A stretch of 64,000 bases of DNA from Candidatus Aenigmatarchaeota archaeon (GTDB taxonomy: Archaea > Aenigmatarchaeota > Aenigmatarchaeia > CG10238-14 > SpSt-28), in assembly GCA_032249395.1 (NCBI GenBank), contig JAVVFY010000001.1, positions 77,476 through 141,475 of the forward strand. The letters are read 5' to 3'. Position 1 is the stretch's first letter. Every line of letters begins with the position of its first letter. Made by a program: the position numbers. Shown here piece after piece: positions 51,001 through 57,000 of the stretch.

Positions 51001-54000
51001 ACTTTAGAAAAAAGCAAAAATATGGACAAAGAGGATATTTTAAAACTAATTCAACTGAAATCAAAACTTGTTGAAAGATTGGCAGAATACGCAAAAACTT
51101 TGATAGAAGATTTCTAGAGAATGAATTTTTAAATTCCCCATCTTAATTCTAATTGGAGGTGCAAAAAAATGGCAAAGAAAGAAGAAAAGGCACTAGTTGT
51201 TAAGTCTGCTGTTAGAGAACTAGTTGGCAACTTAAGAGTATCAGAAGACTTTTGGGAAGCTTTGAATAAGAGTGTATCAGAACTTGTTAAGAAAGCTGTA
51301 GAGAGAGCTAAAGCAAACGGAAGAAAGACTGTTAGAGGAGCCGACCTCTAAATGAAAATAATAGGAATAACAGGAACTTTAGCAAGTGGCAAAACAAGCG
51401 TTAAAGATTTTTTCCTCTCCCGTTTTTCTTCTTCTTATTTTATTTCTTTATCTGACATAATTAAAGAGGAACTTCTAAAAGAAGGTAAAGAGCTTAAAAG
51501 AGAGAATTTTATAGAAAAAGGTAATGAATTAAGGAAAAGGTATGGATTCCAAATTCTTGTGGAAGTGGCAACTTTAACTCTTCCGAAAAATACTAATAAC
51601 CTAATCGTTATTATTGATGGTGTAAGAAATCCAGGTGAAGTAGAGTATCTAAAGAAGAAATTTGGAAAGAATTTTGTTTTAATTGCTGTTGATGCTCCAA
51701 AAGAGCTTAGATTTAAAAGATTGTTAGAACGAAAGAAAGAAGGAGACCCCCAAACCTTTGAAGAATTCAATGAAATAGATGAAACAGATAATGGCAAAAA
51801 TCAGCCCGAGTATGGGCAAAGAGTTGGGGAGTGTTTAAAGCTTGCTGACTATTTGATAATCAATGATGGTTCTTTAGACGAACTGAATAAAAAATTGGAA
51901 AAAATATCAAAGCTTATTCTTTCTTCATAAGAACAACTTTCGTATAGGCCGATGCCAATTGTTCAAATTTTTCAGCATCTTTTTCGCTACCAACAATGCT
52001 ACCATAATGCATTGGTATTGTGTATTTTGGCTTTATTGTTCTAACTGCTTCTACAGCCTCTTCAACATTCATCGTATAAGTTCCGCCTATTGGTAGCATA
52101 GCTATGTCGATTCTTCCTAAATTGTTCATTTCTGGAATGAAATCTGTATCTCCGGCGTGATAAATTCTTATCTTATCTATTTCTATAACATATCCAACGT
52201 ATCCCATTTCCTTTGGATGAAAAACAACACCAGGGGCTCTAAACTTGTTAACATTATATGCGGGGACTGCCTCTATTTCCGCATTGTTAACTTTTGCCCT
52301 ATCTCCTGGAATAAAATACAATATTTTTGCTACATCCGCTTTGAAATTATCAACTTTTGCTCTGCACATTTTTGAGGCAATAATTACTGCTTGTTTGTTG
52401 ACTAACATTTTAATATCATCTATGCTGCAATGATCGAAGTGGTCGTGAGTTATTAAAATTAAATCTGCATCCTTCTCTGGGATTCTAATCTGAAAAGGAT
52501 CTATAAAAATTTTTTGTTCTTTTTCTATTTTGAAAGAGGCATGACCAAGCCACTTAATTTCTATACCAAGAATCTCCATATTCAGTTTTTTAGATAATAT
52601 TTAAAAGCTTTAAACTTTAAACCATTATAAAGGAAAGGCTCTCTTTTTGTATTTTTTCGCGTGACACAATTTATATACATCGGTTTTCAAGGTAAGAATC
52701 ACCCTTCTATTAATTAAAAATGTAGCAAATTCTATAAAACTTTTAAATACAAGAAATCAATAAACTCTATGGCAATAAGCGATTTTCTACCTTTTAGCAA
52801 GAAAGAAAAAGAAGTTGAAGTTAGTGAAGTAGAGGAGTTAAGAATTCCAGAAGAAAAGGAAAAGATAAAAATAAAAGTGGAAAAGATTTTAAAGTCAGAA
52901 GATGTTGATAAAGTTGTTAGAGTTGCTAAGCAGTCTATAGTAATTGTTAAAACTCAAGAACTGCAAAAGAAAGATTTTGGATACACTCAAACACTTATAG
53001 CTAAGCTTAAAAGAAATTGTAAGCAAAACAATATTGATTTAGTTGGTACCTCGGATGGTTATTTGATTCTGGCTCCACCATTCGTTGAAATAATTAGAGA
53101 ATAGGGTGAATTTAATTTAGCGAAGACCTTCTAAGGTTAAAGAAACTAGTAAAAGAGTTAGAAAAAATAAAAGGTAGGCATACCGAATTAGTCTCGGTTT
53201 ACATACCAGCGGGCTATAATCTTTACGAAATTATCAATCAATTAGTTCAAGAAAGGTCTACTGCGGAAAACATTAAAAGTAAGTCAACTCGAAAGAACGT
53301 GATTTCTGCATTAGAAAAGATAATTCAGTATTTGCGTTTGCTCAAGAGAACTCCAGATAATGGTTTAGCAATTTTTGCGGGGAATGTTTCCGAGTTTGAG
53401 GGAAAAGAGGACATAAGGCTTTGGGCTATCGAACCTCCAGAAAAATTAGAAACCAAAATTTATTGGTGCGATCAAGTATTTGTTCTAGATCCGCTTAAAG
53501 ATATGTTAAGAGAGAAAGATGTCTATGGGCTAATAGTTTTAGATGCTCGAGAAGCAACGATAGGTATACTAAAGGGAAAGAAAGTAATAGTAAGGAAGAA
53601 GTTAGATTCGACGGTCCCAAGCAAAACAGTTAAAGGTGGTATGTGTTTACATAAATCTACATTGGTGAAGCTTTCAAACGGTAAGGAAGTTCCAATAAAT
53701 AAGATAAAGAAAGGAGATGAAGTACTTTGTTTCGATTTTACAGAAATGAGAATAAAAACGGGTATAGTAGAAAATATTTACAAAAGGAAAGTGGAGAAAG
53801 CAAGAAAAATTTTCTTCGAAAAAGATTCGCTAATAGCTAGTTACGATCATTTAATTTTCGTAAAAAAAGATAAAGATAAAATTGAAGAAAAATTCGTTAG
53901 GGATTTAGAAAAGCAAGATACAGTTTTTGTGTTGGATGGTAATGAGGTCATAGAGGCAAAAATAAAAAATACTAACGAAACTTTTGTTGAGGCTTCAATA

Positions 54001-57000
54001 TTCTTTTATGACTTAGAGGTTAAGCCGTATGGGAATTATTTTGCCAACGGTTTGTTGGTTCACAATTCTCAAGGAAGATATGACAGACTAAGAGAGGATG
54101 CCATTAACGATTTCCTAACTAAAGTTGGAGAAGTTGCATCAAATGTTTTCCTAGAGGAAAAGGTCAATGGAGTGTTAATAGGCGGTCCAGGCCCTATAAA
54201 AGAAAGGTTAGTTAAGGAAGACTATTTAAATTACCAAATTAGAAATAAGGTGCTTACTGTAAAAGATGTTGGATATACTGATGAATACGGTTTGGAAGAA
54301 CTAGTCAAAAGGTCGGAAGACGTCCTTCAACAAGCAGAAATATTTAAAGAGAAAAAATTGCTAAACGAGTTTTTCGTTAAGTTGAAAGATAAAGGGAATG
54401 TTGTAGTAGGATTGGATAAAACTATTAAAGCATTAGAGGCGGGAGCAGTTAGCGATTTGATAATTTTGGAAGATTTCGAGTATGTTAGAAAACGTTTAGT
54501 TTGCGAAAATGGACATAAAAAAGAAGTTATAGTTAAAAAGGATGATAGAGTCAGTTGTGATTTATGTGGTAAAGAAATGAGTGTTGAAAAAGAAGAAGAA
54601 ATACTTGATGATATAGTGATAAAAGCGGAAGAGTTGGGGGCAAGAGTCCATTTTGTATCTCATGATACTGAAGAGGGTAAGGGATTTAAAAGCATGGGCG
54701 GAATTGGAGCTTTTCTAAGATTTAAGATCGAGTGAAAAACATAAAACAAAACTAAATATATTATTAGAGAATACAGTCTCTCCCCAAAATAGAATTTTAA
54801 ATGTCCAGAACTACTTGAGCCTTCCATATATTATCTTCTTTCCAAATTTTCATGTGGTGGTAAGTGGCAGCTTTAACAACAGTTCTAGTTTGATGTTTTT
54901 CGTGGCTAATCTCCTCCCCTTTACAAACTGCTTCTAGCTTATAATTTTTTTCGTCGACATTAACGTCGAACTCAACAAAAGCCAGATTTTTGCTATCAAC
55001 AACATAGAGTAATTCATTTAGCCAGTTAAACATTAGAGATTCTAAGTCGTGACCTTCGGCAAAAATTTTTTCTTCCACTCTTTTTTCTATTTGATTAGTA
55101 TCTATCATTACTTCAAACATAGCTAGTGCTGCGTTAGCAAAAAGCTCGTTTAAATTTTTACCATAAGCTATAAATGCTACATCTGCGGTAGTTATATCGA
55201 CAAATTCAAATTGTTTCATAAAAAAATTTTAAACACTTTTATAAATTGTTTAATTCTTTTCATTCAGAAAATTTTAATGTTTTACCTCCTAATCCTCTTA
55301 TGAGTGCAGATATAAAAGTAGAAATAGAAGAAATACTAAATAAATTAAAGAATTATAGAGAGGTTAACGGAACTTCTATTATTTTGGTGGATGAAACTGA
55401 AATTCTTTATGAGGGGATAGAGGAGAGTAGGTTTTGGTTGGGAGTATACGATCCAGAAGACAATAGAATATACATTCGCCCTTTTACACCGCTTCCTATA
55501 TATGAATCTGAGGGGAATATAGCATTAGAGAAAAGTTATCCGCAATATTGGGAGGAGATAAAAACTAGTTTGATGCGTATCATAAAATATCCGTATAACT
55601 CCGAGTATGAAGTCAGAGAACTAAAATTGTTACTCAAGAAAATTGAAGAAGATGCGAAAGCTAAAGAAGATAAAATAAATGATTTTCCCATTATCGTAAG
55701 GAAGATTAGGCAGATTATCGAATTTTTAGATTTATCACCAGAGTGGAGATTATATGATTTATTAAAGCAATTATCTACCGAAGCACATGAAACCGGACAT
55801 TCTATTTTACATCATTCGATCTTAGGAAAAGAATACTACGATAGTGTTGCGAGACTTCCGCTATTTGAGTTATTAGATGAGGGTTATGCTGAAGCCTTCT
55901 CTTTTAGATTCTTACTAGAAATGATAATAAAAGGGTATTTACCTTATCATTTTACAAAAGAGTATATACTAGGTAGAGTTAGCTCATGCTTGAGAGATAA
56001 TTTATGTGAAGCTAAAATAAAGCTGTTTAGCATCGATAAAGCAGCTAAGAGAATAAAAAGTATAAGTGAAATAGATTTTAAAAGTGGATTGCAAGATGCA
56101 TTAGGCGTTGTAGATAGAAAAATGAAGTATATAGAATATGAATTGATATCTTCTATCCCTTTTGAAGACGAATCTAGAATTCTAGCAAAGATAATTTTCA
56201 GTATGATAGAAAAGGAGAGACAATGAATTGTGAAGTTAAAATATATATATCACTTATCGATGAAATGCTAGGAAAATATATAGAGAAGTATAGTATTGGG
56301 AGGGAATTCGAATTAAACACAACTACTCCTTTTGGTAGATATCTTCCTGGACAAAATAAAATAATCATCTCAAATCCTCCTATTTTTATGGTAGAAAAAA
56401 GAATGGAAGAATTAGAAAGAGTATTTCCATATGAAGGAGAATTAATAAGAAGGATAGCAATAAAGGCTATCCAATGCCCATATTCTATAACCGGAGGACA
56501 TGTATCTATATTTAAAAAATTGATGGATAGCATATCGGAAGAGATAAAAAACAACGATAAATTAAATATTGAAGATATAAAGAAAATAAGAGATATCGAA
56601 GACATGCTTAATAAATTGAACAAATTTTTAAATGTAGAACCTAGATATAGGTTATATGTATTGAGTGAGTACATTTACAATAATGTGTTTGCAATTGGTG
56701 GCGCTATTTTTTACAACTCACTAATAAAAGGTTATGAAGATGAGCTTTTCTTATCAGAAATTAAGAGACGTAAATTATTTGATATTTTTTATGAGACTTT
56801 TCAAATTCTTTTTTCACTATATTTCTTAACAAAGATTTTTGAGCGATCATACATACCATTAGAAGTTTTAGAAAATGTTTACATATTATTAAAGAAGCAA
56901 TTTGAAGAGATGACGAAGATTAGTAGTGATGAGAAGTTAGTGCTGTATGGTTTTGGAATTAAAGAAATATTAGATGAAATAGGAAATTTATATCGAGATA

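What a model noticed while it worked through the whole genome (the two positions that open the first line are those of the whole stretch)
53605..54095. aRF1 catalytic GGQ is GGM, split by a mini-intein
The peptide-release motif of the single aRF1 reads GGM-SQ instead of the universal GGQ, and a 141-aa mini-intein sits exactly between the M and the S. Boldest reading: this lineage ends translation with a stop-codon-reading release factor whose catalytic Gln is replaced (Met here, Trp in kin) and whose loop has taken the GGxSQ form so far known only from Vms1-like rescue factors (VLRF-1), so GGQ is not universal in class-I release factors. New: a natural, lineage-wide GGQ-less aRF1, and an intein site in its catalytic loop.
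Evidence so far: Calls 34, 35: intein-less relatives of the order read KGGMSQxRYDR (L143-L145 and others) or KGGWSQ (L142, L126, L129), with the same spacing to R[YF]xR as the canonical KGGQSxxR[FY]xR of 5 Micrarchaeota (L136-L140), so M/W align with Q. Call 36: a DNA pattern for KGGMSQxR[YF] hits 41 of 371 genomes of the phylum, all in this order (f4, f6), reversed control 0. Call 39: of 5 other families of the phylum 3 have GGQ (G139, G195, G302, the last with an intein after Q) and 2 GGW without a Gln near (G347, G264). Call 18: one aRF1 match in G000; call 35: no other eRF1-family Pfam row in the genome. Intein: NCBIfam intein C-terminal splicing region on g00145; Cys at its first place, HN then Ser at i [...]
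(Added by a program. Inside this text positions count along the whole contig: contig position 77,476 is position 1 of the stretch shown here. "Call 12" and the like, gene names such as g00115 and contig names such as C1 are that model's own, and its searches are not shown. The text may have been shortened before it was handed on; [...] marks where a part breaks off. The agent that wrote the report below was given it as the finding of a first reader that could run no searches.)

Follow-up and report, generated by a model that had tools for sequence, protein, structure and literature searches.

The report
Release factor lacking its catalytic glutamine
The only protein this small archaeon has for ending translation carries Gly-Gly-Met where every textbook release factor has Gly-Gly-Gln, the same loss arose twice in archaea together with loss of the enzyme that methylates that glutamine, and the gene also has an intein in the loop and an odd start that seems to need a reading-frame shift.

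Summary
Observation confirmed. Window 53116-54735 (+) encodes the genome's only eRF1-family protein, a classical aRF1 (NIKS, YxCxxxF, three eRF1 domains). Its loop reads KGGM|SQGRYDR, with a 141-aa mini-intein (53644-54066) between M and S. Met aligns without gaps with the Gln of solved aRF1/eRF1.

The change is lineage-wide. In Aenigmatarchaeota, 81 genomes read GG[M/W/F/A] and 36 read GGQ. On the aRF1 tree the non-GGQ genes sit on one side. I found a second, independent Q-to-W change in Korarchaeota-like genomes (GGQSQ to GGWSQ).

New independent support comes from Mtq2, the GGQ-glutamine methyltransferase (TIGR00537). It passes cut-off in 33 of 36 GGQ genomes and 0 of 81 non-GGQ genomes. 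In the korarchaeal class it is 27 of 27 against 0 of 3.

Gln two residues on (GGxSQ) is kept in about 94% of non-GGQ genes but is absent in some (GGMSA, GGWSA).

Also found: this gene and 32 other non-GGQ aRF1 genes lack a start codon. At the spot where relatives have SD-N6-ATG they have SD-N6-ATT-TAR, with the ORF in the +1 frame. This resembles the bacterial prfB slippery stop.

No biochemistry exists. The intein site was seen before in this scan.

The parts
53105..53108 (+). Shine-Dalgarno-like GGTG, 6 nt upstream of ATT
   Evidence: The sequence is. In 31 aligned loci G is at -9 in 30, G at -7 in 28, and T (24) or G (7) at -8. GGTG complements the 16S 3' end GGATCACCTCCT of G000. In G000 genes GGTG peaks at -9 to -11 before start codons.
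53115..53120 (+). ATT TAG 'start-stop / slippery-stop' motif; the aRF1 ORF continues in the +1 frame as A TTT AGC
   Evidence: The main frame has no ATG/GTG/TTG before codon 62. The motif was found in 33 of 79 non-GGQ loci and 0 of 33 GGQ loci, at the place where relatives have ATG. It is unique to aRF1 in G000 as a motif followed by a long +1 ORF. RNA-library contigs X15 and X17 show no indel here.
53116..53643 (+). aRF1 N-extein: N domain and first part of M domain, ending in K-G-G-M
   Evidence: Pfam eRF1_1 covers residues 9-131 and eRF1_2 matches in two stretches. TIGR03676 scores 430 bits.
53269..53280 (+). NIKS stop-codon recognition motif (TAENIKSK)
   Evidence: Translation; conserved in relatives.
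53461..53481 (+). YxCxxxF motif (YWCDQVF)
53635..53643 (+). GGT GGT ATG = Gly-Gly-Met in place of GGQ
   Evidence: Gapless alignment with 4AF1 and human eRF1 through an orthologue. All 30 loci of the order are non-GGQ.
53644..54066 (+). 141-aa class-1 mini-intein (Cys1 ... SYDH ... VHN), no homing-endonuclease domain
   Evidence: Family matches. Homologous inteins sit at the same site: 133-148 aa and 303-448 aa in GGM hosts, and at least 500 aa (reading frames cut at the locus ends) in GGQ hosts. The ends of this mini-intein align with the ends of the large ones. RNA-library contigs bridge both junctions, so it is not an intron.
54067..54735 (+). aRF1 C-extein starting S-Q-G-R-Y-D-R: rest of M domain, C domain, and TGA stop
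   Evidence: eRF1_2 covers residues 317-405 and eRF1_3 covers 410-538.

Best explanation
This is the organism's one working class-I release factor. It is an orthologue of aRF1 that still reads stop codons through its NIKS and YxCxxxF elements and still inserts a Gly-Gly loop into the peptidyl-transferase centre. The Gln of GGQ has been replaced by a hydrophobic residue: Trp first, then Met in this order, with Phe or Ala in single lineages.

Inferred mechanism: hydrolysis is driven by the loop backbone and the two glycines. The bulky hydrophobic side chain takes over the packing role of N5-methyl-glutamine. The Gln two residues on (GGxSQ) probably helps, because it is kept in about 94% of such factors. 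The GGQ-specific methyltransferase Mtq2 then had no substrate and was lost.

The protein becomes active only after a 141-aa mini-intein splices out between Met and Ser. This is an ordinary selfish element at a site common in DPANN archaea.

In this genome and many relatives, translation of the gene starts at an SD-positioned AUU followed directly by UAG/UAA. Making aRF1 therefore needs a +1 shift onto UUU-AGC. That would let the aRF1 level control its own synthesis, as in bacterial prfB.

Shown: sequence, orthology, distribution, co-loss of Mtq2, and absence of another release factor. Inferred: catalysis, the role of Gln+2, splicing, the frameshift and autoregulation.
For: Orthology and sole copy:
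- TIGR03676 scores 430 bits against a cut-off of 234.7, and Pfam finds three eRF1 domains.
- PF03463, PF03464 and PF03465 find one locus in G000 at E<=1. PF00472 finds none.
- All 6 second eRF1-family ORFs checked in the order are Pelota over cut-off and lack GGQ.

M equals Q position: gapless alignments.

Purifying selection and spread:
- All 30 loci of the order read KGG[M/W/F/A]SQxRY.
- 119 database proteins are all non-GGQ, and 119 of 120 in a second search are GGW.
- In the tree of 107 rows, 27 GGQ rows lie on one side and 78 non-GGQ plus 2 GGQ rows on the other. That needs 2 changes.

Second origin: in Korarchaeota-like genomes PPKHSAGGQSQRRFERIREE becomes PPKHSAGGWSQRRFERIREE.

Mtq2 co-loss:
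- In the phylum, TIGR00537 passes cut-off in 33 of 36 GGQ genomes and 0 of 81 non-GGQ genomes.
- Inside family f38, the 4 GGQ genomes with Mtq2 contrast with 10 GGW genomes without it.
- In the korarchaeal class it is 27 of 27 GGQSQ against 0 of 3 GGWSQ.

Literature (passages read): the Gln backbone amide can catalyse hydrolysis (PMC6742477), and the Gln side chain has a packing role (PMC5799190).

All three stop codons are in use: TAA 298, TGA 159, TAG 121 of 578 ORFs.

Start site.
Against: - There is no biochemical assay of any GGM or GGW factor.
- PMC5799190 calls the GGQ motif universally conserved and required for release.
- G000 is 89.5% complete, so an unassembled factor cannot be excluded for this one genome.
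- The Mtq2 contrast rests on about three independent evolutionary events, not 117. Three GGQ genomes lack a hit over cut-off (G068; G163; G302 at 79 bits).
- Two non-sampled genomes of non-GGQ families (G034, G267) have borderline partial TIGR00537 hits inside ORFs of about 380 aa.
- The tree is FastTree with a midpoint root, and the key branch has only 92% SH-like support.
- About 6% of non-GGQ loops have no Gln at +2, so the helper role of Gln+2 cannot be essential.
- The frameshift is inferred from DNA only. 7 of 31 aligned loci have GGG instead of GTG upstream. One locus (L096) has an in-frame GTG and needs no shift.
Confidence: 0.7

Rival explanations
1. The catalytic Gln has simply moved two residues. 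GGxSQ works like the GGxSQ loop of VLRF-1 factors, and the residue at the old position is irrelevant filler.
For: - Gln at +2 is present in 74 of 79 non-GGQ loci of the phylum but in only 3 of 33 intein-less GGQ loops there.
- Both independent Q-to-W events happened on a GGQSQ or SQ background.
- GGxSQ is the stated motif of aVLRF-1/acVLRF-1 (PMC6514570).
Against: - GGMSA (7), GGMSS (2), GGWSA (3+4) and GGWSS (1) factors exist without any loop Gln.
- Loop length is unchanged, whereas VLRF-1 loops are described as longer.
- The old position is not random filler. It is W, M, F or A only, and W arose twice despite needing two nucleotide changes.
- Mtq2 is lost, so a relocated Gln would go unmethylated.
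Confidence: 0.3
2. The factor no longer hydrolyses peptidyl-tRNA. It only recognises stop codons and triggers ribosome splitting, as Pelota does, and peptidyl-tRNA is then cleaved off the ribosome by Pth2 or another enzyme.
For: - Pth2 is present in G000 at 132 bits.
- No Pelota was found in G000 with three eRF1 domain models, so aRF1 might cover both roles.
- Pelota-type factors naturally lack the Gln (PMC6514570).
Against: - The Gly-Gly pair and the whole loop KGGxSQxRYxR stay strongly conserved over more than 200 sequences. Inactive families are described as showing poor loop conservation.
- Pth2 is standard in archaea, found in all 4 archaeal control genomes, so its presence is not informative.
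- Relatives in f5 keep both Pelota and a GGW aRF1.
Confidence: 0.1
3. A separate, unrecognised or unassembled GGQ-bearing factor does the release, and this aRF1 is a degenerating copy.
For: G000 is 89.5% complete.
Against: - The same single non-GGQ aRF1 is seen in 81 genomes, many above 90% complete, and in a chromosome-level record (CP070804.1/CP070801.1).
- The stop-recognition motifs are intact.
- There is no PF00472 hit.
- The second eRF1-family genes are Pelota.
- Mtq2 is lost, which would not be expected if a GGQ factor remained.
Confidence: 0.03
4. The odd start is only non-canonical initiation that sets the +1 frame directly. For example, the initiator tRNA is placed on AUU/UUU by the SD. 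No termination competition and no autoregulation are involved.
For: - ATT lies exactly where ATG lies in relatives, at the usual SD distance.
- With a start-stop there is no elongating ribosome to slip.
Against: - A stop codon (TAA in 17, TAG in 14) always follows ATT in the 31 aligned loci.
- The A-TTT-A-R string mirrors the prfB slippery stop CUUUGA (PMC10798248, passages read).
- It is found only in the release-factor gene of G000.
- Caveat: my motif search required A[AG] after TTT, so TGA variants were not looked for.
Confidence: 0.35

Closest known systems
Classical archaeal/eukaryotic class-I release factor aRF1/eRF1 (e.g. PDB 4AF1, 3AGK, 1DT9)
   Same: It has the three-domain architecture, NIKS and YxCxxxF motifs, the Gly-Gly loop and the following RYxR helix. 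It aligns over its full length at E 1.2e-84 to 4AF1.
   Different: The third residue of GGQ is Met (Trp, Phe or Ala in relatives), and the cognate methyltransferase Mtq2 is missing.
aVLRF-1 / acVLRF-1 families of Vms1-like release factors (Burroughs & Aravind 2019, PMC6514570)
   Same: The loop motif GGxSQ is the same. Pfam acVLRF1 also gives a weak match of 28.6 bits to the M-domain part after the loop.
   Different: aVLRF-1 lacks the C-terminal pelota-like domain and has an N-terminal coiled coil. acVLRF-1 lacks the stop-codon domain. VLRF-1 loops are longer. This protein has all three classical domains and an unchanged loop length.
Pelota/Dom34
   Same: It belongs to the eRF1 superfamily and has no catalytic Gln.
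   Different: Pelota has a different N domain and no conserved GG loop. This protein scores only 51.5 bits against the 177.65 cut-off for TIGR00111.
Bacterial prfB (RF2) programmed +1 frameshift at CUU UGA
   Same: It sits in a release-factor gene. An XUU-U slippery codon is followed by an in-frame stop that the encoded factor reads, with an SD-like element upstream and the product in the +1 frame (PMC10798248).
   Different: The site lies at the initiation position (0 to 4 codons of leader), not after about 25 codons. The SD spacing is 6 nt, not 3. The stop is UAA/UAG. It is in archaea, and it is unproven.
aRF1 inteins at the GGQ|S site of other DPANN archaea (earlier notes of this scan) and standard class-1 mini-inteins
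   Same: The insertion site is the same, with Cys1, a block B His, terminal His-Asn and Ser at +1. Both mini and endonuclease-bearing forms occur.
   Different: Here the residue before the intein is Met, not Gln.

Membership tests
aRF1/eRF1 (classical aeRF-1) | eRF1_1 + eRF1_2 + eRF1_3 domain architecture and equivalog-level similarity | tested here: met
   Pfam scores are 59.1, 110.1 and 79.2 bits. TIGR03676 scores 430.2 against a cut-off of 234.7.
aRF1/eRF1 (classical aeRF-1) | Stop-codon recognition motifs NIKS and YxCxxxF | tested here: met
   TAENIKSK and YWCDQVF are present and conserved in relatives.
aRF1/eRF1 (classical aeRF-1) | Catalytic GGQ tripeptide | tested here: not met
   The loop reads GGM, and M aligns with Q. 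I therefore file it as an aRF1 orthologue with a variant catalytic motif.
aRF1/eRF1 (classical aeRF-1) | Stop-codon-dependent peptidyl-tRNA hydrolysis | not testable with these tools
   This needs a release assay.
aVLRF-1 / acVLRF-1 | GGxSQ loop motif | tested here: met
   The loop reads GGMSQ after splicing. The motif is as stated in PMC6514570.
aVLRF-1 / acVLRF-1 | No C-terminal pelota-like domain, N-terminal coiled coil (aVLRF-1) or no stop-codon domain (acVLRF-1), and a longer loop | tested here: not met
   eRF1_3 and eRF1_1 are both present. The loop alignment to 4AF1 is gapless. NCBIfam acVLRF1 scores 16.3 against a cut-off of 125.
Pelota | TIGR00111 equivalog score | tested here: not met
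   51.5 bits against a cut-off of 177.65.
Class-1 intein (HINT) | Cys/Ser at position 1, block B His, C-terminal His-Asn, and a nucleophile at +1 | tested here: met
   The sequence is C...SYDH...VHN|S. Intein_splicing scores 35.8 bits, equal to its cut-off, and intein_Cterm scores 23.4 against 15.6.
Class-1 intein (HINT) | Protein splicing | not testable with these tools
   Splicing is inferred from the intact motifs and from the essential host gene.
prfB-type autoregulatory +1 frameshift | Slippery XUU-U codon followed by an in-frame stop, with the product continuing in the +1 frame | tested here: met
   ATT TAG C is at 53115-53121. 33 loci carry the motif.
prfB-type autoregulatory +1 frameshift | Upstream ORF0 translated by elongating ribosomes, SD 3 nt before the shift codon | tested here: not met
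   The leader is 0 to 4 codons long, and the SD-like GGTG lies 6 nt upstream, at start-codon distance.
prfB-type autoregulatory +1 frameshift | Frameshifting that responds to release-factor level | not testable with these tools
   This needs reporter assays or proteomics.

The most novel reading that the evidence does not exclude
Peptide release on the ribosome does not need the 'universal' GGQ glutamine or its methylation. Two archaeal lineages, most Aenigmatarchaeota and a korarchaeal clade, independently hard-wired Trp or Met in its place and discarded Mtq2. Some (GGWSA, GGMSA) have no Gln in the loop at all. In a subset, the factor also controls its own synthesis through a start-stop AUU-UAR +1 shift. 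That would be the first archaeal counterpart of bacterial RF2 autoregulation.
Probability: 0.45. Interest if true: 0.92.

Novelty: new variant of a known kind. Interest (0 to 1): 0.85.

Why it matters
GGQ is described as universally conserved and required for release in all three domains (for example PMC5799190, passages read). A natural sole release factor without the Gln therefore matters in several ways.

- It recurs in two phyla and is tied to loss of the Gln methyltransferase. This gives a natural experiment on what the Gln and its methylation really do.
- It offers ready-made variants (GGW, GGM, GGF, GGA, with or without Gln+2) for release assays and cryo-EM.
- It cautions against using GGQ as an annotation rule for active factors.
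- The ATT-TAR start, if confirmed, would show that release-factor autoregulation by frameshifting at a stop codon evolved convergently in archaea.

My searches found no paper on any of these points. Searches covered GGQ, aRF1, DPANN and Aenigma(t)archaeota. One search covered intein plus aRF1. Searches covered aRF1/prfB frameshifting in archaea.

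Tried and rejected
- Assembly or sequencing error: rejected. The same structure is present in 8 genomes of the genus, in an independent DNA contig, and in RNA-library contigs, all without indels.
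- Intron instead of intein: rejected. RNA-library contigs bridge both junctions, with the caveat that such libraries can hold DNA.
- Membership in aVLRF-1: rejected on architecture.
- GTG at 53106 as the true start of a 4-codon leader: judged less likely. 7 of 31 loci have GGG there, and one (L045) has 7-nt spacing that puts GTG in neither frame. The same GGTG-N6 also precedes ATG in normal genes.
- Main-frame ATT/ATA start two codons before TTT: rejected, because G000 and L009-L011 have TAA there.
- A downstream in-frame start (GTG at codon 62): rejected, because it would delete the conserved N-terminal helix and NIKS.
- Reading ATTTAA as a TATA box: considered and dropped, because conserved coding sequence follows at once.
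- Submitter labels such as 'Micrarchaeota' and 'Nanoarchaeota' on some GGW records: not taken as evidence for other phyla. G313 is counted in this phylum.
- Papers PMC2175178 and PMC60236 (Gln mutagenesis): not held. What I say about them is recollection.
- Not done: no structure prediction or complex prediction was run, no supplements were read, and TGA variants of the start motif were not searched.

Full report
**The object**

Window 53116-54735 (+) is a 539-codon stop-to-stop frame. It matches Pfam eRF1_1 (residues 9-131), eRF1_2 (two stretches) and eRF1_3 (410-538). It also matches Intein_splicing at 35.8 bits, which equals the cut-off. In NCBIfam it matches the aRF1 equivalog TIGR03676 at 430.2 bits (cut-off 234.7), pelota at only 51.5 bits (cut-off 177.65), and intein_Cterm at 23.4 bits (cut-off 15.6) on residues 297-318.

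The DNA reads AAA GGT GGT ATG | TGT ... CAC AAT | TCT CAA GGA AGA TAT GAC AGA. This translates to K-G-G-M, then a 141-residue insert from Cys to His-Asn (53644-54066), then S-Q-G-R-Y-D-R. The stop-recognition motifs TAENIKSK and YWCDQVF are intact.

An intein-less orthologue (L021) aligns without gaps to solved aRF1 4AF1 (E 1.2e-84) and to human eRF1. Its 'kggmsqkrydrlr' lies over 'kggqsaqrfarlr' and 'rggqsalrfarlr', so Met occupies the Gln position.

**Is it the only release factor?**

- In G000 (752,806 bases, 25 contigs, 89.5% complete), PF03464, PF03465 and PF03463 each find only this locus at E<=1.
- The bacterial RF-1 domain PF00472 finds nothing.
- No Pelota was found either.
- With the window protein as query, 39 of 41 related genomes have a match. 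The only additional eRF1-like matches are weak. I fetched six of these and all six are Pelota over cut-off and lack GGQ.
- All three stop codons end long ORFs in G000: TAA 298, TGA 159 and TAG 121 of 578.

**Spread in the phylum**

Database names place the lineage in Candidatus Aenigmatarchaeota.

- All 30 loci from the own order are non-GGQ: GGM 22, GGW 6, GGF 1, GGA 1.
- I parsed 119 of 121 proteins from the first database search (the 120 homologues listed plus the window's own protein). They read GGMSQ 102, GGMSA 7, GGMSS 2, GGM+intein 4, GGFSQ 2 and GGWSQ 2. None is GGQ.
- A phylum-wide search found aRF1 in 354 of 371 genomes.
- Sampling by family gave three groups. GGQ occurs in f8-f17, f19-f26, f28, f29, f31-f33, f40 and part of f38. 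GGW occurs in f18, f27, f34-f37, f39 and most of f38. GGM/W/F/A occurs in f1-f7.
- A second database search around a GGW loop gave GGWSQ 114, GGWSA 3, GGWSS 1, GGW+intein 1 and GGQSA 1, of 120.
- A FastTree of 107 distinct aRF1 rows puts 27 GGQ rows on one side of a branch (92% SH-like support). The other side holds 78 non-GGQ rows plus 2 GGQ rows of f38. That needs two changes of state. Trp is the basal replacement and Met a later one. The root is at the midpoint only.

**A second origin**

I scanned one genome per prokaryote species with a degenerate DNA pattern for PxKxxxGG[M/W/R/L]SQxR[FY]xR[IV]R. It gave 102 hits, of which 80 were listed: GGWSQ 67 and GGMSQ 13.

Two records have a different context, PPKHSAGGWSQRRFERIREE. 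One is labelled 'Thermoproteota archaeon isolate Kor4' and the other 'uncultured Nitrososphaerota'. Each has one aRF1, and one also has a Pelota. Their closest database relatives, some named Candidatus Korarchaeota, read PPKHSAGGQSQRRFERIREE. Across that search the loops are 7 GGWSQ, 62 GGQSQ and 49 GGQSA of 120.

So Q-to-W happened again, as a single-residue change, outside the Aenigmatarchaeota. The search also shows that Gln at +2 is common in ordinary GGQ factors.

**Independent test: the Gln methyltransferase**

Mtq2 (NCBIfam TIGR00537, cut-off 87 bits) passes cut-off in the four archaeal control genomes. In G000 the best hit scores 29 bits. Across the phylum it passes cut-off in 127 of 371 genomes.

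I cross-tabulated this against the loops I had read:

| Group | Mtq2 over cut-off |
|---|---|
| GGQ genomes, phylum | 33 of 36 |
| Non-GGQ genomes, phylum | 0 of 81 |
| GGQSQ genomes, korarchaeal class | 27 of 27 |
| GGWSQ genomes, korarchaeal class | 0 of 3 |

- The three GGQ exceptions are G068, G163, and G302 at 79 bits.
- Inside family f38, the GGQ genomes G291, G292, G297 and G298 have Mtq2, and ten GGW genomes have no hit at E<=1e-12.
- In the class around the korarchaeal genomes, 34 of 40 genomes have Mtq2.
- Relatives are not independent. This amounts to roughly three contrasts, all in the same direction.
- Two genomes of non-GGQ families that I did not sample for loops (G034, G267) have borderline partial hits inside ORFs of about 380 aa. 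These look like other methyltransferases.

**How it probably works**

The papers I read in passages say three relevant things. The two glycines adopt backbone angles only glycine allows. The Gln side chain has a packing role. The Gln backbone amide can catalyse hydrolysis (PMC5799190; PMC6742477).

I infer the following:

- A hydrophobic side chain (W, M, F or A) fills the pocket that N5-methyl-Gln normally fills.
- The backbone still does the chemistry.
- Mtq2 became dispensable.

Gln+2 is kept in 74 of 79 non-GGQ loci of the phylum, against 3 of 33 intein-less GGQ loops. It is therefore probably a helper or back-up. This matches the GGxSQ motif that Burroughs & Aravind report for aVLRF-1/acVLRF-1 (PMC6514570). 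Those families differ in architecture and loop length, however, and natural GGMSA, GGMSS, GGWSA and GGWSS loops show that Gln+2 is not indispensable.

A Pelota-like 'split, then Pth2' route cannot be excluded, because Pth2 is present. It fits poorly with the strong conservation of the GG loop.

**The intein**

It has Cys1, a block-B SYDH, a terminal VHN and Ser at +1. Homologues sit at the same site:

| Host loop | Intein length |
|---|---|
| GGM | 133-148 aa (mini) |
| GGM | 303-448 aa (full) |
| GGQ (f38) | at least 500 aa (frames cut at the locus ends) |

The two ends of the window's mini-intein align with the two ends of the large ones. It is therefore an endonuclease-less derivative. RNA-library contigs bridge both junctions. 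Earlier notes of this scan record aRF1 inteins at GGQ|S in eight other DPANN windows. My search found no paper on it.

**The start of the gene (outside the given coordinates)**

The main frame has no ATG, GTG or TTG before codon 62, which lies beyond NIKS. Immediately upstream the DNA reads GGTG-AATTTA-ATT-TAG-C (53105-53121), and the aRF1 frame continues as A-TTT-AGC.

- All 21 distinct loci without a main-frame start carry A-TTT-A-R at 18-28 codons (18-23 in 20 of the 21) before the GRHTEL anchor.
- In 31 aligned loci the upstream element is GG[T/G]G at -10 to -7.
- This element complements the 16S 3' end GGATCACCTCCT of G000.
- It lies where GGTG lies before ordinary start codons in G000, with a peak at -9 to -11.
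- Orthologues with a normal start have the same GGTG-N6 followed by ATG. So ATT stands exactly where ATG stands, and 'ATG AAC GAA' corresponds to 'ATT T AAC GAC'.

Counts over 112 distinct loci:

| Loop type | ATTTAR | ATG | Neither |
|---|---|---|---|
| Non-GGQ | 33 | 45 | 1 |
| GGQ | 0 | 31 | 2 |

Of the 33, L104 lacks the SD and looks like chance, and L096 has an in-frame GTG.

In G000 the motif GG[TG]G-N6-ATTTAR occurs 5 times, and only the aRF1 copy precedes a long +1 ORF with no upstream start. Two RNA-library contigs from different studies and one independent DNA contig cover the site without indels.

The string A-UUU-A-R parallels the prfB slippery stop CUUUGA (PMC10798248). I read it as an SD-placed AUU start followed by a stop, escaped by a +1 shift. 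That would make aRF1 synthesis depend inversely on aRF1 activity. This is inferred, not shown. I put the frameshift at about 0.6 and autoregulation at about 0.5.

**Verdict**

The change is clade-wide, arose twice, and is coupled to Mtq2 loss. It is a new variant of a known kind of protein, of high interest, and awaits a release assay.

Noticed in passing
window 53105-53121 and loci L006-L013, L020, L024-L027, L029-L034, L043-L047, L049, L055, L058, L060, L063, L083: The aRF1 genes have no start codon. They carry SD(GGTG)-N6-ATT-TAR with the ORF in the +1 frame, at the place where orthologues have SD-N6-ATG. This may be a prfB-like autoregulatory shift at a start-stop.
   Followed up: yes
L257 (G374), L258 (G375), L264 (G413): Korarchaeota-like genomes have an independent GGQSQ-to-GGWSQ aRF1 and no Mtq2. 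All 27 GGQSQ relatives sampled from the same class of 40 genomes keep Mtq2.
   Followed up: yes
whole genome G000: No Pelota (aDom34) was found with PF03463, PF03464 or PF03465 at E<=1, while relatives in f5, f7 and genus g4 have one. The genome is 89.5% complete, so absence is not shown.
   Followed up: partly
window 52769-53104 (+): A 111-aa ORF ends at TAG one base before the GGTG element of aRF1. An RNA-library contig spans both, which suggests co-transcription or coupling. Its family was not determined.
   Followed up: no
L266-L292 (korarchaeal class): Many GGQSQ aRF1 frames there begin 'K(T/K)LSLTYERYEF' without an obvious ATG near the N terminus. They may use TTG, CTG or other starts. 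I did not examine this.
   Followed up: no
L117-L119 (G292, G291, G302, family f38): GGQ-bearing aRF1 genes sit nested among GGW relatives and carry inteins of at least 500 aa right after the Q. Intein homing with co-conversion of the flanking codon could have restored Q. This was not tested.
   Followed up: no
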